Positions 33,013 through 56,198 of a DNA stretch of 64,000 nucleotides are shown one piece after another. The translations under genes were made by a program, and so were the position numbers. Position 1 is the first letter of the stretch. Every line of letters begins with the position of its first letter. The notes under the pieces were generated by a model. It was not told where the DNA came from and searched no databases. It saw only the letters and a program-made list of their open reading frames with translations. Source of the stretch: Phycisphaerae bacterium (GTDB taxonomy: Bacteria > Planctomycetota > Phycisphaerae > SM23-33); NCBI GenBank assembly GCA_049975485.1, contig JBNGDC010000001.1, forward strand, positions 144,996 to 208,995, read 5' to 3'.

Positions 33013-35679
33013 TCAGTCGCGGAAGGGGCCCAGGTCGCGATACAGCAGTCGCGAACCTGTCGGAATGTTCCCGTACTCCTCGAATAGCAGCAGTTCGTTC
33101 TCTTCCTCGAACAGGCAGCCGGGCAGATAGTAATCCTCCTGCGGGCCGACGGTCCAGAACCGCCCGACGTTGTGCCCGTTGAGCAGAATCTGCCCTTTCC
33201 TGGCGCCAACGATGTGCAGAAACAGCGGACGGTCCGGCTCTGAACACTTGAACGTGGCGCGGTACCACGCCGGCATGTCCTTGCCCACGACGCGTCCCGC
33301 TTCCTGGGGCACGCTCCAGGGGCGGTAGGACCACTTGGCGCCGGCCGTTATGTCCTCCTGAAGCTCGTGCAGTTCGATACCCTTCAGTGCGGTCTCGGTC
33401 ACGTCGCCCCACAGCAGTATGGTCAGGCGGTTCTTGCCCTTGCGAAGCTCCGAGCCGAGCGTTACGTCGGCGAAATTCCGTCCTGTAGAGGGGAAGAAGC
33501 CCACCGTCCTGTCGTTGCAGAGAATGGCGAAATGGTGGGGCACGTCCCGCAGGCAGAGGTGCACGGGCGTAACGGTCTTCAGAGAAATATCCAGCTCTGC
33601 GGAGTAAACCGGCATTTTGAGAAGCTCATCAAGATAGCTACTCAAGGCCCGTGGTATGATCCTTCTGCTGAAGCTCTCCTGCTGCTTGATGCGCAGTTTG
33701 CCGGTTCGCATCGAACGGGCGTCCCAGATGGGACCGAAAAGCCCTTTCTGCTCGCCAAGTGTAGGCCCGTCCGCGAAACGCCCCATGTTATCGACCAGCA
33801 GCGTAAGGACGTTCATGCCCCGCTTGAACGAAACGTCTATGGGTGAGCGGGTAGCGCCGTCGCCGCGGCCCCAGACGCCGGCAAGTTCGCCATTGTGGAA
33901 TATGATGGCCCTGTCTTCGCAGTCCGGCAGAAGCAGTTTGCGCTTCTTGGCGCGGGGTTGCTCGACCTCCGCCCGGTACCACACATACCCGTAATGCACG
34001 CCCAGGCGGTCTGCGTCACGGGGCCTGTCGAGCTTCTCCCACGGAAGCTCCTCGTCCAGTGGCTCGTTGCACACCAGTATCCGCGTCCACTTGCCCAGGC
34101 GGGGTGGCTGGCTCTTGCGCTCCGCGGGCGGCTTGGACTTCCTGCGGCTGATTTTGCCGTCGATCAATGAGAGCGTCGTGACCTGCCTGGCCTTGCCCCA
34201 GGTAAGGTCCTCCGCCGTCTCGCCGACGAACTCCGGACCGAAGATGATGCTGTCCTCTATCGGCCAGGTGCGCATGGCCAGTTCGCTTGACAGCAGCACT
34301 ATGGTCACACCCTCATGCTCAATGAGCTTCGGTTCATCGCCGGACGGGACCTTTGCGGAAACTTCCCTGGTGTTGATGCTGATGCGGGCCTCGAAGCCCG
34401 CCGGGCCGTGTAGCAGCAGATACTTCTCCGCGAAAAGTCCCAGGGGTGTCAGGTTTGCATAGTCCAGCTCGGCCTGTTCGTTCAGCAGCAGGTCCATGGG
34501 CACCAACACCGCCCCCAGCGGCTCCAGCGGCACGGTGAGCTTCGTACCGTCCGGCAGTGTCAGCCCGGCCTGTTCGGTGTGGCGGGAGCCGTTGCTGGTA
34601 ACCACGGCCCAGGCGCCGGCGTGCCCGGCGGTGTTGAGCACGTCGGTTCCGTCGGTAATCCTGGCGCCGGCCTCGGGCATGACGCTGCCGGCAAGGAACC
34701 TTCCCATGTGCGTGGCGGTGAGGTTCACCAGTCGGGTGGTGTAGAACTTTTCGGTCAGTCCGCCGCCCTCTGACACGGGGGAGTCCAGGTCGTAGCTGGT
34801 GGCACAGAAGGCGTCGTCGCCGTCGGCGAGGCGTCCGCCGCGGAAGTCGAAGTTCGTCCCGCCGCAGTAGGTGTAGTAGTTCACCTGGGCGCCGCAGCCG
34901 ATCGCCTCCAGCATCAGCCGGGCCACGTCCGCCGGTTCATGCGAGAAGTGCTTGCGTCCCCACGCATCCGCCCACGTCGGACAGAATTGCGAGAGTATCA
35001 GCGGGCGGTTGGGTTGTCGGCGTCGCAGTTGGTTCAGTCGGCTGACCACATCTTCGCCGGCGGCCGCACATTCGATGCTGTTGGACGCCGGGGGGTCGGT
35101 GAAGTCGTTGCAGTTGATTATCGGAATATCGAAGCCCGACCGGCGGAACAACTGGTTGATGAATTCCAGATAGTTCTGCCTGTCCGGCATCGTGGTCATC
35201 CAGTAGCGATGCTCATTCTGGATGAGAATTATGTTCCCGCCGCGTGTTACCTGCAGCTCCGCCAGGCGGGGCAGAACCTGGCCGAGGTACTTGTCGCTGT
35301 AGTGCATGAACGCGGCGTTGCTGGTGCGATAGCTGATCCCGCCCTTGGTGGTCAGCCACGCCGGAAGCCCGCCGAAGTCTAGGTCCGCCCCGATATAAGG
35401 ACCGGCCCGAAGTATCACGTACAGCCCCAACTCCGCGGCGAGGCGGACGAACTCCACTATGTCCCTGTCGCCGGAGAATCGCCACTTGCCCTCATGCGGC
35501 TCGTGGAAGTTCCAGGCGATCGGCGTGGCGACGCAGTTTAGCCCCCCGCGACGCGCCTTCAGCAGACGGTCGGGCCAGCATTCCGCGGGTATGCGGAAGT
35601 AGTGCACCTCGCCGCTGGACAGCCAGACTGGCTTGCCATCGACAAGGAAACAACGGTCGTCATTTGTGACAGTCGGCAT
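33013..35679 (-). CDS. glycoside hydrolase family 35 beta-galactosidase
   Basis: GPYIGADLDFGGLPAWL is the GH35 signature, with catalytic-region IQNEHRY. 888 aa with no signal peptide. Confidence 0.8.
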   Translation of the reverse strand: MPTVTNDDRCFLVDGKPVWLSSGEVHYFRIPAECWPDRLLKARRGGLNCVATPIAWNFHEPHEGKWRFSGDRDIVEFVRLAAELGLYVILRAGPYIGADLDFGGLPAWLTTKGGISYRTSNAAFMHYSDKYLGQVLPRLAELQVTRGGNIILIQNEHRYWMTTMPDRQNYLEFINQLFRRSGFDIPIINCNDFTDPPASNSIECAAAGEDVVSRLNQLRRRQPNRPLILSQFCPTWADAWGRKHFSHEPADVARLMLEAIGCGAQVNYYTYCGGTNFDFRGGRLADGDDAFCATSYDLDSPVSEGGGLTEKFYTTRLVNLTATHMGRFLAGSVMPEAGARITDGTDVLNTAGHAGAWAVVTSNGSRHTEQAGLTLPDGTKLTVPLEPLGAVLVPMDLLLNEQAELDYANLTPLGLFAEKYLLLHGPAGFEARISINTREVSAKVPSGDEPKLIEHEGVTIVLLSSELAMRTWPIEDSIIFGPEFVGETAEDLTWGKARQVTTLSLIDGKISRRKSKPPAERKSQPPRLGKWTRILVCNEPLDEELPWEKLDRPRDADRLGVHYGYVWYRAEVEQPRAKKRKLLLPDCEDRAIIFHNGELAGVWGRGDGATRSPIDVSFKRGMNVLTLLVDNMGRFADGPTLGEQKGLFGPIWDARSMRTGKLRIKQQESFSRRIIPRALSSYLDELLKMPVYSAELDISLKTVTPVHLCLRDVPHHFAILCNDRTVGFFPSTGRNFADVTLGSELRKGKNRLTILLWGDVTETALKGIELHELQEDITAGAKWSYRPWSVPQEAGRVVGKDMPAWYRATFKCSEPDRPLFLHIVGARKGQILLNGHNVGRFWTVGPQEDYYLPGCLFEEENELLLFEEYGNIPTGSRLLYRDLGPFRD

Positions 35680-36092
35680 CGTTCGGCCCCTGTCAACACC
35701 GGAGATAGCTAAGTTTTACGAAGTGCTTAGATTGCAGAGAGTGTATGCATCGGCTGCTCCCATGCAATAAAAAACGCCCGCGTCCGCGGGTTTATCACCG
35801 GCGAGATGAGGGCCGGCTGTGCCGTTAGTCGCAGTTACTAGCTTATGTCATAAGGGTTTAGGTCAGGCCACAGGCCGCTATCCAGTTAGCTGAGGAATAT
35901 CAGTCTTTTGGTGTAACATCTGTTTGCAGCAGCGCTTAATATGGAGTGGATGTGTTGTGCTGGGTTATTGCAGATACTGGTGGTATATGCTCGACGGATT
36001 TCTTTTACACTTGACAGGCATGTAAGGGTCAGGTTAGGAAAGGCATTGATGACACTTTCAGTGGCGGCAAGGCCAGGTAGAGGGGTCTGCGA

Positions 36093-37520
36093 ATGAGCGT
36101 ACTGACAAACGGCAGACGTGGCGTGGCTCGTAAGAAGCTGTACGATTTTTATAAGGAAGTCATTACGCCCAATGAGCACCTGAACCGGGGTATCGTCAGC
36201 TTTCAGGGGAATAAGCGGGAGCCGTTTTACCGGTGGTTTAAGTACAAGGAGGGGTTTTCCTCTCATCTAGTAGCGTATTTCCTTCAGTCCACAGGTTTAT
36301 CCGAAGGGACATTACTCGATCCGTTCGCCGGCGCGGGTACGTCGTTGTTCGCAGCTCGGGATTCCGGATGGCGGGCCTTGGGAATCGAATTGCATCCTGT
36401 GCCGCTTTTCGCGATAGAGGCACGTCTTGCTGGAGAATCCCTCGACGGGGCCCGCTTCAACCTGGCGGTCGAGAGGGTGGAGAACAGGGCGTACGAGAGA
36501 CAGCCGGAAGATAAACCGGGTTTTCCGCACCTTAACATCACCAGTGGCGCTTTCCCGCCCTTAAACGAGCAACGTCTTATGGCCTACTGGCATTACTGCC
36601 TGAGTCATGTGAAAGACCCGAGTGTGCGGAAGGTCCTGCAGTTTGCCGCGCTTTGTGTACTGGAGGATATAAGCTATACGAGGAAGGACGGTCAGTACTT
36701 GCGATGGGATGCTCGAAGTCCGAAAAAACGCGGTAAAGGCGCGTTTATCAAAGGGCAGATCGCTGATTTTCACGACGCAATCACGGCAAAGCTACGGATT
36801 ATCAGCTCGGACCTGAGGACCTTGTCCGGCAGCGGGCATTTGTTCAGGCCGACCAGACTGACACGCGGTCCGGTGGATATGTGGGAGGGGTCCTGCCTGA
36901 ATGTGCTTCCCGAAATGTCTTCGGATTCGGTGGACCTGGTTGTCACTTCGCCTCCTTACTGCAACCGCTATGACTATACGCGGACCTACGCCCTGGAGCT
37001 TGCATTACTCGGGCGAAACGAAGAGCAGGTGAAAGGGCTGAGGCAATCCCTTCTTTCCTGCACCGTTGAGAATCGCGCCAAGCGCGAGCAGATTAAGACG
37101 GCTTACGAAGCCCGGTCGGGGCGTGAGGCGTTTGATTTTGTAGAGCAATGCTTTGATTCGGTGGATGCATTGCATGAAGTGCTGGAGATTCTCGAAAGTT
37201 TCGGAAGGGACAATGCTCTCAATAACACAAATATCCCGCGAATGGTGCGGAATTATTTCTACGAGATGAGCTTCGTTATCTACGAGCTTGCTCGTGTTAT
37301 GCGGGCTGAAGGAAAGGTAGTTATGGTTAACGACAACGTTCGCTACGCCGGCGAGGAGGTGCCGGTTGACCTGATTCTGAGCGAACTTGCTCGACAGATG
37401 GGCTTTACCGTGGATAAGATATGGGTTCTGTCCAGAGGTAAGGGTAATAGCAGTCAACAGATGGGAATACATGGGCGAAGAGAGCTGCGAAAGTGCGTAT
37501 ATGTGTGGCAAAAGGAGTAA
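36093..37520 (+). CDS. site-specific DNA amino-methyltransferase (N6-A or N4-C), alpha-class motif order
   Basis: Motif I DPFAGAGTSLFAA (aa 77) and motif IV VVTSPPYCNRYDY (aa 289), with about 200 aa between them (candidate TRD). It lies in a low-GC island. Confidence 0.75.
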   Translation: MSVLTNGRRGVARKKLYDFYKEVITPNEHLNRGIVSFQGNKREPFYRWFKYKEGFSSHLVAYFLQSTGLSEGTLLDPFAGAGTSLFAARDSGWRALGIELHPVPLFAIEARLAGESLDGARFNLAVERVENRAYERQPEDKPGFPHLNITSGAFPPLNEQRLMAYWHYCLSHVKDPSVRKVLQFAALCVLEDISYTRKDGQYLRWDARSPKKRGKGAFIKGQIADFHDAITAKLRIISSDLRTLSGSGHLFRPTRLTRGPVDMWEGSCLNVLPEMSSDSVDLVVTSPPYCNRYDYTRTYALELALLGRNEEQVKGLRQSLLSCTVENRAKREQIKTAYEARSGREAFDFVEQCFDSVDALHEVLEILESFGRDNALNNTNIPRMVRNYFYEMSFVIYELARVMRAEGKVVMVNDNVRYAGEEVPVDLILSELARQMGFTVDKIWVLSRGKGNSSQQMGIHGRRELRKCVYVWQKE

Positions 37521-37560
37521 GCACACCCGTGCAACTATGGACGGCGGAGAGAGGTAAAGG

Positions 37561-38532
37561 ATGAGTAACGGGCCCCCCGGCTGCGATGACCAGTTGATTA
37601 AGGCGTTAACCGCTGCCTATACGGCTCGATCCAAACTTTTTCACGAAGGCGTGAGAAGCTGCAATATTGACCTGCTGATAGCGGAGATCGACGCTCTGGA
37701 TTCAGAGAGCTTGTGCTGGGATTTGGGTACTGTGGGAATCTCGGCGACGTCATGGAAGAAAGTGAAGGAAAGTGGAGCCGTTCCGGAGCAGGTCTTTGTT
37801 CATCCGGATGTGATCGTGAAGAACCCGTCCCTGATCGCCTACTACCGGAACATGGCGACCATATCAAACAAGGGGATGGGTCAGCTATTGTTCTCGACCA
37901 TCGGGTATGAGAAGGGCTCGGGTCGGCAGATCGGGCGGGACCGTGCCGAGGAGTTAAGCCGCGTGCTTAACGGAATCATATCCAACGTAATAGACTCGGT
38001 GGCCGACTACGACGTGCAGGTTAGCCGTAAGGCAATCCTAGCCGAAATCGGCGCCCAGCTTCAGGGCACTTGGGCGAATTTGATAGGTCAGGGGGCGACA
38101 AACCAAGTGGAGCAGATAATTCGGGATCACATCGAGCGGCAGGATCGCGGCAGTCGCATCGAATCAGGTAGGTATCATCTGTCAAACGAATGGAAAATCA
38201 TCTTTGGTACCGAACCGGACGTTGCGTTCTTTGACAAAGATGGTCTATTGCGAATGGCAATCGAGATAAAAGGCAGCCTCGACAAGGCCGGTGCACAAAC
38301 GCGCTATGGAGAAGCCAAAAAGTCGTTTGCCAAGGCAATCAAAGAGAACCCGCGCTGCCATACGATTTATCTTGCTTCTTGTTTCACAGAGGCCGTCGTG
38401 GAGCAAATCAAGGCGGATGGGCAGGTCCGTGAGTGGTTCAACCTGACGTCGATTCTATACGACGATGGCGAGCGAGCCCATTTTCTCGAATCGGTTTTTC
38501 ATGTTGTTGATGCGCCATATCGTACCGGCTGA
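37561..38532 (+). CDS. putative type II restriction endonuclease (PD-(D/E)xK-like), partner of the upstream MTase
   Basis: 323 aa. VAFFDKDGLLRMAIEIKGS contains a D...EIK catalytic-like motif. There is no other homology. It is co-directional with the MTase, 40 bp downstream, and has the same low GC. Confidence 0.45.
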   Translation: MSNGPPGCDDQLIKALTAAYTARSKLFHEGVRSCNIDLLIAEIDALDSESLCWDLGTVGISATSWKKVKESGAVPEQVFVHPDVIVKNPSLIAYYRNMATISNKGMGQLLFSTIGYEKGSGRQIGRDRAEELSRVLNGIISNVIDSVADYDVQVSRKAILAEIGAQLQGTWANLIGQGATNQVEQIIRDHIERQDRGSRIESGRYHLSNEWKIIFGTEPDVAFFDKDGLLRMAIEIKGSLDKAGAQTRYGEAKKSFAKAIKENPRCHTIYLASCFTEAVVEQIKADGQVREWFNLTSILYDDGERAHFLESVFHVVDAPYRTG

Positions 38533-38566
38533 GCCAACGGCCTCCCATTCGCGGGCCCACAAGTCC

Positions 38567-39946
38567 TTATTGCGCTAACGGCTCAAGCTTGCACAGAAAA
38601 CTTGCCGAGGCATATGAGCCGCGGTAGAGCTGATCAAGACGGAAATGCTCGTTCGGGCCGTGGATGTTGTCGTCGCTGAGTCCGAAGCCCATCATTGCCG
38701 CGTCTATGCCCAGCAGTCGCTGTATAAGCTCCGCTATGGGCACGGAGCCGCCCGTGCGGATCATCGCGGGCTTGCGGCCGAACGCTTCCGAAAGCGCCGC
38801 CGCGGCCGCCTGGAGGGCGGGTGACTGCCGCGACAGCAGCACCGGACGGGCCGTCGAATACACCTTCAGTTCCGAACGGATGCCCGCGGGCGTGTTGTCG
38901 GCGATGAAACTCCGAAAACCCTCAAGTATCTTCTCCGGGTCCTGGTCGGGCACCAGACGAGTGGAGACCTTCGCCATGGCGCGTGCGGGGATGATGGTCT
39001 TGGCGCCGGGTTCGATGTAGCCCGAGACCAGGCCGTTGACGTCCAGTGTCGGTCTGGACCAGCGTCGTTCGAGCAAGTCCCGGCCGCTTTCACCGCCGGC
39101 AAGCTCCTTCACGCCCAGCCAGCGGGCGTATTCCGCCTCATCCAGCGGCAGTTCGCTCCAGAGACGCCGCTCGTCTTCGTCAAGCTCTCGTACGTCGTCG
39201 TAGAAGCACGGCAGGGTCACCCGGCCGTTCTCGTCGTGCATGCGGCCTATCAGCTTTGCCAGCGCGTTGGCGGGGTTGACCACGGCGCCGCCGTGCGAGC
39301 CGCTGTGCAGGTCGGCGGATGGTCCGTGAAAGGTGATTTCCACGTAAACGATGCCCCGCAGCCCGTACACCAGGCAGGGCAGGTCTGGGGCGAAGAACTC
39401 CGAGTCGCTTATCACGGCGGCGTCGGCCGAGAGCCGGTGTGCGTTCTCGGCGACGTAGGGTTCAAGGTTGGGCGAGGATACCTCCTCCTCGCCTTCCAGG
39501 AGCATCTTCACGTTCACCGGCAGCCCGCCGCCGGCATTCTGCCAGGCCTCCATCGCCATTATGTGCGTGTAGAGCTGGCCCTTGTCGTCGTTGGCGCCGC
39601 GTGCATAGACCGCCCCGTCGCGGATGGACGGCTCGAACGGAGGCGTGTCCCACTCATCCAGAGGATCCGCGGGCTGGACGTCGTAATGGCCGTAGATAAG
39701 CACGGTGGGGGCGTTCTCGTGCGTGCGGGCCTCGGCGAAAACGACCGGCCTGCCGCCGGTCGGCTCGATGCTCGCCGAAAGTCCGATGCGCTGCAGGCGT
39801 GCGACGAGCCACTCGGCCGCCTGCCTGCAGCGGTCCGGCTCGCGACGGACGTTGGCGATACTGGGTATCCGCAGCAGCTCACACAACTCCGAAAGATGCC
39901 TCTCACGATTGGCATCCAGGTACTCCCTGACGGGTGTGGGCAGCAT
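38567..39946 (-). CDS. M20 family metallopeptidase (dipeptidase / ArgE-DapE-CPG2-like)
   Basis: IYGHYDVQPADPLDEWDTPPFEP, GANDDKGQ and dimerisation-domain features. 459 aa. Confidence 0.75.
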   Translation of the reverse strand: MLPTPVREYLDANRERHLSELCELLRIPSIANVRREPDRCRQAAEWLVARLQRIGLSASIEPTGGRPVVFAEARTHENAPTVLIYGHYDVQPADPLDEWDTPPFEPSIRDGAVYARGANDDKGQLYTHIMAMEAWQNAGGGLPVNVKMLLEGEEEVSSPNLEPYVAENAHRLSADAAVISDSEFFAPDLPCLVYGLRGIVYVEITFHGPSADLHSGSHGGAVVNPANALAKLIGRMHDENGRVTLPCFYDDVRELDEDERRLWSELPLDEAEYARWLGVKELAGGESGRDLLERRWSRPTLDVNGLVSGYIEPGAKTIIPARAMAKVSTRLVPDQDPEKILEGFRSFIADNTPAGIRSELKVYSTARPVLLSRQSPALQAAAAALSEAFGRKPAMIRTGGSVPIAELIQRLLGIDAAMMGFGLSDDNIHGPNEHFRLDQLYRGSYASASFLCKLEPLAQ

Positions 39947-40033: not shown

Positions 40034-40633
40034 CTATTTCCGCCGGGACCACCATCGCTTCTTTGACTTTTTCCGGTCGGCCTGGACCGACTTTGCCATC
40101 GTATTGAGCTTGGGCAGTTTTGACCGCATGTCCAGGAGCTTCCGGCGGGCGAAGCTTTCGGGGTGTTGGTGGAAGGCCTCGCGACTGGACTCGGTAAAGA
40201 ATGCCGAAGGGTCCGGCAGCTCGTCGTCTTCGCCGTAGAACTTAAGGGCCTCCCGCAGGCAAAGTGCCGCCCGGTAGCCCAGCAGCCGACGTTCGCGAGG
40301 CGGGGTATTGTCGTCGGCCGCCTTCTCCAGATGCCGGTAAAACAAGCTCAGCCATTGTGCCACGTCGATGAGTCCGCTGGGGGCGTCCGAGGCGCTGATG
40401 AGTTCGGCGTCCTCCTCTCTGCCGCTGCTGTCGCAGACGAATTCAAAGGTCTTCTCATGCCCGCACGACTTGCATCGCGCCTTAATGCTCAGCTTGTCGC
40501 CGGCCTCGGCGACTTCGGTGGTGTCGTCCAGCAGCCACGGGCCTTTCCCGCAGTTCGGGCAGGGCGTGACCATCAGGAAATACTTGGCCTCGTTCTCCGT
40601 TGCCGCATGGGGAAGGTCAGTCATCATCGCCAC
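40034..40633 (-). CDS. hypothetical zinc-ribbon protein
   Basis: CPNCGKG...CKSCGH four-Cys knuckle pair, then a helical acidic region and a basic tail (KKSKKRWWSRRK). Confidence 0.4.
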   Translation of the reverse strand: MAMMTDLPHAATENEAKYFLMVTPCPNCGKGPWLLDDTTEVAEAGDKLSIKARCKSCGHEKTFEFVCDSSGREEDAELISASDAPSGLIDVAQWLSLFYRHLEKAADDNTPPRERRLLGYRAALCLREALKFYGEDDELPDPSAFFTESSREAFHQHPESFARRKLLDMRSKLPKLNTMAKSVQADRKKSKKRWWSRRK

Positions 40634-56124: not shown

Positions 56125-56198
56125 GGGCGCGTAGCTCAGATGGCCAGAGCGCATCCCTTACAAGGATGAAGTCGCAGGTTCGAGCCCTGCCGCGCCCA
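56125..56198 (+). tRNA. tRNA-Val (anticodon UAC)
   Basis: Acceptor stem GGGCGCG/CGCGCCC, D arm GCTC..GAGC, anticodon stem CATCC/GGATG with loop CTTACAA, T arm GCAGG-TTCGAGC-CCTGC, and discriminator A. CCA is not encoded. Confidence 0.9.

What the first reader, a model, noticed from the sequence alone, without database searches (positions are those of the whole stretch)
35680..38560. Low-GC two-gene restriction-modification island with an unclassified nuclease partner
The GC content drops sharply to roughly 45-52%, against about 65% in the flanks, across 35.7-38.5 kb. The island encodes an alpha-class amino-MTase (FAGAGT ... SPPY) and a 323-aa protein whose only recognisable feature is a D...EIK PD-(D/E)xK-like motif. 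No integrase, tRNA or repeats flank it.

This is a horizontally acquired defence cassette, and the endonuclease may be of an undescribed family.
Basis: partly seen in the sequence, partly recalled or inferred. Interest (0 to 1): 0.5.

Follow-up and report, generated by a model that had tools for sequence, protein, structure and literature searches.

The report
Ordinary XcyI-family restriction-modification gene pair
This low-GC stretch is a horizontally acquired two-gene Type II restriction-modification system, but its nuclease belongs to the already described XcyI family and most resembles the solved enzyme BsoBI, so it is an ordinary defence cassette rather than a new kind of endonuclease.

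Summary
Bases 35.7-38.5 kb have 53% GC against 63% for the rest of the window (z = -5.8). This is the window's lowest GC and its largest tetranucleotide deviation. The stretch encodes a 475-aa methyltransferase (36093-37520) and a 323-aa nuclease (37561-38532). No tRNA, integrase or flanking repeats are present.

It is a divergent subfamily, 25-31% identical to canonical XcyI/Cfr9I/Pac25I enzymes. Its partner is not their ~300-aa beta-class methylase. It is a circularly permuted 475-aa SPPY methylase, 36% identical to methylases encoded next to AvaI/BsoBI-family nucleases. The same M-then-R pair recurs in all 22 other distinct contexts where the upstream side is present. It has lower GC than its host in 23 of 24 loci.

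The likely target is CCCGGG or CYCGRG, cut after the first C; this is inferred and untested. Novelty: new member of a known kind. Interest is low.

The parts
35680..36092 (.). 413-nt low-GC non-coding leader between the GH35 gene start and the methyltransferase start. It presumably holds the cassette's promoter. The left boundary of the insert lies somewhere in here.
   Evidence: Only ORFs of 51 aa or fewer lie wholly inside it; a 126-aa antisense ORF (35886-36266) overlaps its right end. GC in 100-bp windows falls to 0.44-0.50 from 35651 onward. No sigma-70-like site was found in this stretch and no Rfam match.
35777..35790 (-). Terminator-like GC hairpin (CCCGCGGACGCGGG followed by a T run) on the minus strand, just upstream of the GH35 gene.
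   Evidence: It could be the original terminator of the minus-strand M20 peptidase gene, now separated from it by the inserted cassette. That is inference only.
36093..37520 (+). Type II DNA methyltransferase, 475 aa, with motif I before SPPY. It is the type found next to AvaI/BsoBI-family nucleases and probably makes N4-methylcytosine.
   Evidence: PADLOC MTase_II PDLC03224 at 451 bits over the full length. Pfam PF01555 at 29.7 bits covers the FxGxG part only. It is 100% identical to an NCBI 'site-specific DNA-methyltransferase [Phycisphaerae bacterium]'. It is 36% identical over 477 aligned positions to the methylase next to a PF09194 nuclease on plasmid pLAC3. The AF2 model has pLDDT 85.3 and a class I SAM-MTase fold.
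36324..36338 (+). Methyltransferase motif I (F78-A-G-A-G82, AdoMet binding).
   Evidence: D76, P77, F78, G80 and G82 are invariant in 45 homologues. It aligns to the C-terminal FxGxG of beta-class methylases.
36948..36959 (+). Methyltransferase motif IV (S286-P-P-Y289, catalytic).
   Evidence: T285-S-P-P-Y289 is invariant in 45 homologues. It aligns to the N-terminal SPPY of the canonical XcyI-type methylase.
37546..37554 (+). Shine-Dalgarno-like GGAGAGAGG, 6 nt before the nuclease start codon, inside the 40-nt M-R spacer.
   Evidence: Read directly from the sequence.
37561..38532 (+). Type II restriction endonuclease, 323 aa. It is a divergent member of the XcyI family (PF09571) with a PD-(D/E)XK fold closest to BsoBI.
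38215..38271 (+). Nuclease catalytic motif P219-D220-x14-E235-I236-K237.
   Evidence: P219, D220, E235 and K237 are invariant in 55 close homologues. P219, D220 and E235 are invariant and K237 nearly invariant across 43 members, including canonical XcyI-type enzymes. The downstream motif E-x-K-G-x-x-D-x-A-G-A is shared with a BsoBI-family enzyme.

Best explanation
This is a horizontally acquired, intact Type IIP restriction-modification cassette in a Phycisphaerae (Planctomycetota) genome.

The upstream gene encodes a 475-aa amino-methyltransferase. Its AdoMet motif precedes an SPPY catalytic motif. It belongs to the type that accompanies AvaI/BsoBI-family nucleases. It presumably protects host DNA by N4-methylating a cytosine in the target site.

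The downstream gene, probably co-transcribed, encodes a 323-aa PD-(D/E)XK endonuclease. It is a divergent branch of the XcyI/XmaI/Cfr9I family, and its fold is closest to BsoBI. By analogy it acts as a homodimer approaching from the major groove and cuts unmethylated incoming DNA.

The most likely target is a C/G-rich palindrome of the CCCGGG or CYCGRG kind, cut after the first C to leave a 4-nt 5' overhang.

**Shown here**
- Gene pair, motifs, fold and family membership.
- Foreign composition.
- Recurrence of the same pair in unrelated genomic contexts.
- Purifying selection on the nuclease.

**Inferred**
- Methylated base, recognition sequence, cleavage position, oligomeric state and co-transcription.
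For: - **Nuclease family.** PF09571 at 78.8 bits, E 5.8e-22. PADLOC REase_II at 1.3e-8. All 120 listed homologues carry PF09571, and five are named XcyI family or XcyI restriction endonuclease by NCBI or JGI. hhalign against Pac25I of plasmid pRA2 gives probability 98% over 272 columns.
- **Methylase.** PADLOC MTase_II at 451 bits. It is permuted relative to the canonical beta-class XcyI-type methylase. It is 36% identical, nearly end to end, to the methylase next to a PF09194 (BsoBI) nuclease on Ligilactobacillus pLAC3. The Enterococcus plasmid shows the same pairing.
- **Conserved module.** The M gene lies directly upstream of R on the same strand in all 22 distinct other contexts where that side of the contig is present. 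Flanking genes differ, and the hosts are Planctomycetota, Anaerolineales, Elusimicrobia, Chitinophagales and Ignavibacteria. M and R diverge in step, down to about 36% identity each.
- **Foreign composition.** GC z = -5.8 and the top tetranucleotide distance. GC3 is 0.61-0.62 against 0.80-0.83 in flanks. The pair is lower in GC than its host in 23 of 24 loci, mean -7.3 points. A relative that keeps the Amidohydro_2-hyp-M20 synteny has no R-M there.
- **Functional.** dN/dS is 0.156 against a 93%-identical copy.
- **Literature.** The XmaI/XcyI/Cfr9I/Pac25I family cuts C^CCGGG and is accompanied by N4mC methylases. BsoBI cuts C^YCGRG at the same relative position (PMC1920265).
Against: - No experimental or methylome data exist for this system, so the recognition sequence is not established.
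- The nuclease is only 25-31% identical to characterised XcyI-type enzymes. It gives no Pfam BsoBI hit at the E <= 0.1 threshold used.
- Its methylase is of a different class from that of canonical XcyI systems. Specificity may therefore differ.
- CCCGGG is not notably avoided in the window (22 observed, 27 expected).
- No palindrome is specifically depleted in hosts carrying the pair relative to control loci.
- No clean empty site was found in a close relative. The only syntenic relative lacking the cassette also lacks the GH35 neighbour.
- That SPPY means N4-cytosine rather than N6-adenine is a rule of thumb from established knowledge, not a test.
Confidence: 0.88

Rival explanations
1. It is the same Type II R-M architecture, but this divergent XcyI-family branch with its AvaI/BsoBI-type methylase recognises a sequence that is neither CCCGGG nor CYCGRG. 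That would be a new specificity within a known family.
For: - The nuclease is only 25-31% identical to canonical XcyI-type enzymes and scores 76-79 bits on PF09571 against 368-370 for canonical members.
- The methylase is only 36% identical to BsoBI-partner methylases.
- The window strongly avoids GAGCTC (1 observed, 40 expected), GTCGAC (0, 24) and CAGCTG (2, 24) but not CCCGGG.
Against: - Both independent leads point to the same C^(C/Y)CG(G/R)G group of targets: the nuclease family and the family of nucleases its methylase type accompanies.
- The closest solved fold is BsoBI.
- The palindromes avoided in the window are not avoided in several other hosts of the pair, for example GTCGAC 19 observed and 22 expected in L023. 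Their avoidance is therefore better blamed on other systems of this lineage.
Confidence: 0.35
2. The nuclease gene is an inactive remnant and only the methyltransferase is functional, giving an orphan methylase with a decaying partner.
For: - Orphan copies of this methylase type exist, in the Phormidium sp. ETS-05 chromosome and on an Acetobacter plasmid.
- Two related loci show split tblastn hits suggestive of frameshifts: M in L028 and R in L033.
Against: - The window's R ORF is full length.
- It keeps all 63 columns that are invariant in 55 homologues, including the catalytic PD...EIK.
- It has a good Shine-Dalgarno sequence.
- It evolves under purifying selection, dN/dS 0.156.
Confidence: 0.06
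3. The GC dip is not a sign of horizontal transfer but an intrinsic compositional property of these two genes, inherited vertically in this lineage.
For: - Two close relatives (flank proteins 82-87% identical) carry the nuclease gene at the same position next to the M20 gene. In one of them (L009) the preceding methylase 3' end is also present. The cassette is thus not a strain-specific recent arrival.
- No mobility genes or repeats flank it.
Against: - The same pair sits between unrelated housekeeping genes in five phylum- or order-level groups.
- It is lower in GC than its host in 23 of 24 loci, across host GC values from 44 to 72%.
- GC3 differs by about 20 points from neighbours.
- A syntenic relative lacks the cassette.
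- Synonymous divergence of R between the window and L009 (dS 0.24) is far below that of the flanks (0.61-0.73). This fits later exchange.
Confidence: 0.05

Closest known systems
XcyI / XmaI / Cfr9I / Pac25I restriction-modification systems (nuclease family Pfam PF09571; C^CCGGG)
   Same: - The nuclease is a statistically secure member of the same Pfam family.
- It aligns essentially end to end with Pac25I.
- It shares the catalytic PD-x(n)-E-x-K motif and further invariant residues Y95, K104, D241 and R248.
- Gene order is the same, M then R on one strand.
- Both methylases carry SPPY.
   Different: - Identity is only 25-31%, and the PF09571 score is about 79 bits against about 370 for canonical members.
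- Canonical systems use a 289-300-aa beta-class methylase (SPPY first, FxGxG last) whose gene overlaps R by 4 bp.
- Here the methylase is 475 aa and circularly permuted (FxGxG first). It carries large inserts and is separated from R by 40 nt.
- Hosts are Planctomycetota and other environmental phyla rather than proteobacterial plasmids.
AvaI / BsoBI restriction-modification systems (nuclease family Pfam PF09194; C^YCGRG; PDB 1dc1)
   Same: - The local motif E-x-K-G-x-x-D-x-A-G-A is shared.
- The methylase is homologous over its full length (36% identity) to methylases encoded beside PF09194 nucleases.
- Nuclease size is similar, 313-321 aa.
   Different: - The nuclease gives no PF09194 hit at E <= 0.1.
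- Profile-to-sequence comparison with a BsoBI-family enzyme finds only the 25-residue catalytic stretch.
- The residue aligned with the His of the BsoBI-family 'ADEHW' segment is an invariant Arg (R248) in this family. From my own recollection of van der Woerd et al. 2001, that His is BsoBI's proposed catalytic His253.
- Gene order in the plasmid BsoBI-type systems is R then M. Here it is M then R.
CCGG-family Type II nucleases (NgoMIV, Cfr10I, Bse634I, SgrAI, AgeI, BsaWI, PspGI)

Membership tests
Type II restriction-modification system | Adjacent, separate genes for a DNA methyltransferase and an endonuclease. | tested here: met
   36093-37520 (M) and 37561-38532 (R) lie on the same strand with a 40-nt spacer. 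The pair is conserved in all 22 other distinct contexts where the upstream side is present.
Type II restriction-modification system | The methyltransferase carries an AdoMet-binding motif I and a catalytic (S/D/N)PP(Y/F) motif IV on a class I MTase fold. | tested here: met
   [not shown]
Type II restriction-modification system | The endonuclease has a recognised nuclease fold and catalytic residues. | tested here: met
   PD-(D/E)XK: P219-D220...E235-x-K237 is invariant. The fold matches BsoBI and other Type II nucleases.
Type II restriction-modification system | Site-specific cleavage blocked by the cognate methylation. | not testable with these tools
   This needs expression and cleavage assays or methylome data.
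XcyI family restriction endonuclease (Pfam PF09571) | Score above the Pfam gathering threshold. | tested here: met
   78.8 bits against a cutoff of 25, E 5.8e-22, covering residues 60-269.
XcyI family restriction endonuclease (Pfam PF09571) | Full-length homology to a canonical, named member. | tested here: met
   hhalign of the 55-sequence profile against the pRA2 (Pac25I) nuclease gives probability 98%, E 2.5e-13, 272 columns and 25% identity.
XcyI family restriction endonuclease (Pfam PF09571) | Recognition of CCCGGG with cleavage C^CCGGG. | not testable with these tools
   Site-avoidance statistics were uninformative.
Canonical XcyI/Cfr9I-type R-M system (whole system) | The partner is a ~300-aa beta-class N4-cytosine methylase (SPPY N-terminal, FxGxG C-terminal; full PF01555 match). 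| tested here: not met
   Canonical partners are 289-300 aa and score 186.6 bits on PF01555. The window methylase is 475 aa, scores 29.7 bits on the FxGxG part only, and is circularly permuted relative to them.
AvaI/BsoBI family restriction endonuclease (Pfam PF09194) | Score above the Pfam gathering threshold. | tested here: not met
   There is no PF09194 hit at E <= 0.1 for the window nuclease. A distant homologue of this clade (L031, 36% identical) reaches 24.6 bits against a cutoff of 25, and a Nostoc plasmid XcyI-family protein (L037, 30% identical) reaches 21.7 bits.
AvaI/BsoBI family restriction endonuclease (Pfam PF09194) | Structural similarity to BsoBI (PDB 1dc1). | tested here: met
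   [not shown]
AvaI/BsoBI-type methyltransferase (partner of PF09194 nucleases) | Full-length homology to methylases encoded next to PF09194 nucleases. | tested here: met
   36% identity over 477 aligned positions to the pLAC3 methylase, whose neighbour scores 344.8 bits on PF09194. It is 38.7% identical to the Enterococcus plasmid methylase, whose neighbour scores 411.5 bits.
Alpha-class amino-methyltransferase (Malone-Blumenthal-Cheng motif-order classes; own knowledge of the definition) | The AdoMet-binding region (motif I) is N-terminal, the catalytic motif IV is C-terminal, and a long variable region lies between them. | tested here: met
   Motif I lies at 78-82 and motif IV at 286-289, with an insert of about 160 aa (100-260). 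The insert contains the conserved hairpin YTRKDGQYLRWD. The order is reversed relative to a beta-class methylase.
Alpha-class amino-methyltransferase, Dam-like D12 group (Pfam PF02086) | Sequence match to the Dam/D12 family. | tested here: not met
   Only PF01555 and PF01170 are hit. The protein is alpha by motif order only and is not a Dam relative.

The most novel reading that the evidence does not exclude
This Planctomycetota-centred branch of the XcyI family, together with its permuted AvaI/BsoBI-type methylase, may recognise a sequence not yet represented among characterised Type II enzymes. It would then be a natural intermediate between XcyI (CCCGGG) and BsoBI (CYCGRG). Such an enzyme could show how specificity shifts when a nuclease lineage swaps methylase partners.
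Probability: 0.3. Interest if true: 0.4.

Novelty: new member of a known kind. Interest (0 to 1): 0.18.

Why it matters
It matters little beyond annotation. The region is a standard defence cassette whose nuclease can be named (XcyI family), so it should not be carried forward as a candidate new nuclease family.

Two modest points of interest remain:
- This branch links the XcyI and BsoBI families, which Pfam keeps separate. The links are structure, a shared E-x-K-G-x-x-D-x-A-G-A motif and the methylase partner.
- It documents module shuffling, with an XcyI-type nuclease paired with a BsoBI-type methylase. The resulting pair is spread across several environmental phyla.

If cloned, the enzyme could provide a CCCGGG/CYCGRG-type isoschizomer or a new specificity.

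Tried and rejected
1. **Inferring the recognition site from palindrome avoidance.** In the window CCCGGG is not depleted, while GAGCTC, GTCGAC and CAGCTG are. Across 26 other host loci no single palindrome is consistently depleted. Against 80 control loci from related genomes there is only a general, non-specific excess of palindrome avoidance. The approach was rejected as uninformative.
2. **Sequence search of the PDB with the nuclease or its profile.** There were no hits even at E = 10. The link to BsoBI is visible only by structure and a short motif.
3. **Exact-sequence look-up of the window's own proteins.** This was meant to retrieve the source contig, but they are not on record.
4. **Looking for a clean empty site.** The metagenome scan with the M20 peptidase gave relatives of 63% identity or less. 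Only one (L043) keeps upstream synteny, and there the downstream neighbour is rplU rather than GH35. It shows absence of the cassette but not a precise insertion junction.
5. **Controller (C) protein, Rfam RNA or promoter in the 413-nt leader.** None was found.
6. **Literature on the methylated base of M.AvaI and M.BsoBI.** The held papers do not state it. The N4mC assignment rests on the SPPY rule and on the XcyI/Cfr9I data in PMC1920265.
Full report
**Observation**

The composition profile shows GC of 0.51-0.55 in every 500-bp window from 35.5 to 38.7 kb, against 0.61-0.68 on both sides. Bases 35680-38560 have 53.1% GC against 63.4% for the rest of the window. That is 5.8 standard deviations below 20 non-overlapping windows of the same size. 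It is the lowest GC value anywhere in the 64 kb, and the same stretch has the largest tetranucleotide distance from the window average. Third-codon-position GC is 0.61-0.62 in the two genes and 0.80-0.83 in the four neighbouring genes.

The two ORFs are 36093-37520 (+, 475 aa) and 37561-38532 (+, 323 aa). They lie between a minus-strand GH35 beta-galactosidase (33013-35679) and a minus-strand M20 peptidase (38567-39946). The quoted motifs are all present. The only tRNA in the window is at 56125. No meaningful flanking repeats exist. The ORFs scanned between about 26 and 48 kb are housekeeping or uncharacterised, with no integrase or transposase.

**The nuclease**

The 323-aa protein is not unclassified.
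- It matches Pfam PF09571 (RE_XcyI) at 78.8 bits, E 5.8e-22, against a gathering score of 25.
- It matches a PADLOC Type II REase model.
- A word-seeded search of 5.8 billion proteins returns 267 homologues. All 120 listed carry PF09571. Five are named XcyI family or XcyI restriction endonuclease by NCBI or JGI, in Planctomycetota, Phycisphaerales, Pirellulales and Sedimentisphaerales MAGs.
- A full HMMER scan of 1.84 billion representatives finds 609 clusters at E <= 1e-3 and 117 at E <= 1e-30, with a continuous fall-off in score.
- A 55-sequence alignment has 63 invariant columns, including P219, D220, E235 and K237.
- Across 43 members that include canonical plasmid XcyI-type enzymes, Y95, K104, P219, D220, E235, D241 and R248 are invariant and K237 nearly so.
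- Profile comparison with the pRA2 (Pac25I) enzyme gives probability 98% over 272 columns at 25% identity.

Canonical members score 368-370 bits on PF09571, while this clade scores 76-79. It is therefore a divergent subfamily, 25-31% identical to the XcyI/Cfr9I/Pac25I type.

The literature already places XcyI/XmaI in the PD-(D/E)XK superfamily (PMC3424549; PMC2441816). It lists XmaI, Cfr9I, Pac25I and XcyI as one sequence family cutting C^CCGGG. That family is accompanied by methylases that form C-m4C-CGGG (PMC1920265, Table 1).

**Nuclease structure**

Sequence searches of the PDB find nothing. A BLASTP and hhalign comparison with a BsoBI-family enzyme aligns the catalytic stretch. The window protein reads IEIKGSLDKAGAQTRY where the BsoBI-family enzyme reads GELKGGIDPAGADEHW.

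Two more distant relatives give borderline PF09194 hits over the same stretch. They are the L031 copy (36% identical) and the L037 Nostoc plasmid protein (30% identical).

The fold is that of the EcoRI-like alpha branch, to which BsoBI, Cfr10I and NgoMIV are assigned (PMC4081073).

**The methyltransferase**

It is 100% identical to an NCBI protein named 'site-specific DNA-methyltransferase [Phycisphaerae bacterium]', which identifies the source lineage. PADLOC's MTase_II model PDLC03224 covers it end to end at 451 bits. Pfam PF01555 matches only the FxGxG part, at the N-terminus of the protein but the C-terminus of the model.

BLASTP against the 289-aa methylase of a canonical Xanthomonas XcyI-type system shows the circular permutation directly. 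Query residues 250-295 (SPPY) align to subject residues 4-49. Query residues 55-125 (FxGxG) align to subject residues 219-289.

The informative result comes from plasmids:
- The methylase is 36% identical over 477 aligned positions to a methylase on Ligilactobacillus acidipiscis pLAC3.
- It is 38.7% identical to one on an Enterococcus faecalis plasmid.
- Both lie next to nucleases that score 345 and 412 bits on PF09194, the BsoBI family. The pLAC3 nuclease is annotated 'AvaI/BsoBI family'.

Canonical XcyI-type systems instead use a 289-300-aa beta-class methylase whose gene overlaps R by 4 bp. The window's system therefore combines an XcyI-family nuclease with a BsoBI-type methylase.

**Context and mobility**

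In all 22 other distinct contexts where the upstream side is present, a homologous 470-480-aa methylase gene sits immediately upstream of the nuclease gene on the same strand. The flanking genes differ from locus to locus. They include GFO/IDH/MocA oxidoreductase, tRNA synthetases and FtsX. The hosts include Planctomycetota, Anaerolineales, Elusimicrobia, Chitinophagales and Ignavibacteria. M and R diverge together, down to about 36% identity each in L031 and L032, as expected of a co-inherited unit.

The pair is lower in GC than its host flanks in 23 of 24 loci, by 7.3 points on average, over host GC values from 44 to 72%.

Two close relatives of the window organism (flank proteins 82-87% identical) carry the nuclease gene at the same place next to the M20 gene. 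In L009 the preceding methylase 3' end is also present. A more distant relative keeps the Amidohydro_2-hyp-M20 synteny. It has rplU downstream and no R-M.

Between the window and L009 the nuclease gene shows dN/dS 0.156, so it is under purifying selection. Its dS is only 0.24, against 0.61-0.73 for the flanking genes. This suggests the cassette was exchanged between these lineages after they split.

Together this supports horizontal acquisition, although a precise empty site was not recovered.

**Mechanism**

What is shown:
- An intact M-R pair with the catalytic motifs of both enzymes and a PD-(D/E)XK fold.
- Membership in PF09571.
- A methylase of the BsoBI-partner type.
- Foreign composition, mobility and selection.

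What is inferred:
- The methylase makes N4-methylcytosine. This rests on the SPPY rule (established knowledge) and on the XcyI/Cfr9I precedent in PMC1920265.
- The nuclease acts as a homodimer that cuts an unmethylated C/G-rich palindrome after the first C, leaving a 4-nt 5' overhang.
- The site is CCCGGG or CYCGRG. Both independent leads, the nuclease family and the family its methylase type accompanies, converge on that group, which shares cleavage geometry (PMC1920265).

I put about 0.6 on the site sub-claim and 0.88 on the overall description. Attempts to read the site from palindrome avoidance failed.

**Verdict**

The finding is a real, horizontally acquired Type II R-M cassette, but an ordinary one. 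The 'undescribed endonuclease family' idea is refuted by a standard Pfam search. What is mildly new is a divergent, mainly planctomycetal branch of the XcyI family that bridges to BsoBI and has swapped methylase class. I rate it a new member of a known kind, with interest about 0.18.

Noticed in passing
window 1-64000 (whole window); also L009 and L030: Three 6-bp palindromes are almost absent from the window relative to a fourth-order Markov expectation. GAGCTC is seen once against 40 expected, GTCGAC 0 against 24, and CAGCTG 2 against 24. GATC, GCGC and CTAG are also strongly under-represented among 4-mers. The two closest relatives show the same trend. This points to other restriction systems (SacI-, SalI- or PvuII-like specificities) acting on this lineage, not obviously the cassette studied here.
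   Followed up: partly
window 37561-38532 versus L009 143-1114: Synonymous divergence of the nuclease gene between the window and its close relative is dS 0.24. That is 2.5-3 times lower than for the adjacent M20 (0.61) and Amidohydro_2 (0.73) genes. The cassette may have moved between these lineages by homologous recombination after they diverged.
   Followed up: partly
window 35771-35795: A bidirectional-looking GC hairpin (AAAAACGCCCGCGTCCGCGGGTTTAT) sits about 90 nt upstream of the GH35 start. It scores as a minus-strand intrinsic terminator. It may be the original terminator of the M20 gene, now displaced about 2.8 kb by the inserted cassette. That would put the left junction of the insert to the right of about 35,800.
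   Followed up: no
window 40034-40633 (-): A 199-aa hypothetical protein next to the M20 gene has a weak, sub-threshold match to Pfam Lar_restr_allev, the restriction alleviation protein Lar (22.2 bits against a cutoff of 28.6, E 1.7e-4). It is syntenic in a relative that lacks the R-M cassette, so it is probably just a zinc-ribbon protein.
   Followed up: partly
L028 8558-9975; L033 10001-10935: In two Phycisphaerae-lineage MAG loci the tblastn match is split into two overlapping pieces. The methylase is split at aa 407/408 in L028 and the nuclease at about aa 254-259 in L033. This suggests frameshifted, decaying copies or assembly errors.
   Followed up: no
L010 5001-6407 (Phormidium sp. ETS-05 chromosome); L034 3441-4862 (Acetobacter pasteurianus plasmid): Homologues of the methylase (52% and 46% identical by tblastn) occur without any adjacent annotated nuclease gene. 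One lies beside the RuBisCO operon in a cyanobacterium. The other lies about 1.9 kb upstream of type I-F cas1/cas3 genes. Orphan versions of this methylase type therefore exist.
   Followed up: no
L037 3492-4277 (Nostoc sp. C057 plasmid p057_J): A truncated 261-aa XcyI-family protein (30% identical to the window nuclease) lies next to an IS4 transposase with no methylase nearby. It hits both PF09571 and, weakly, PF09194. This is another sign that the two Pfam families are contiguous.
   Followed up: no
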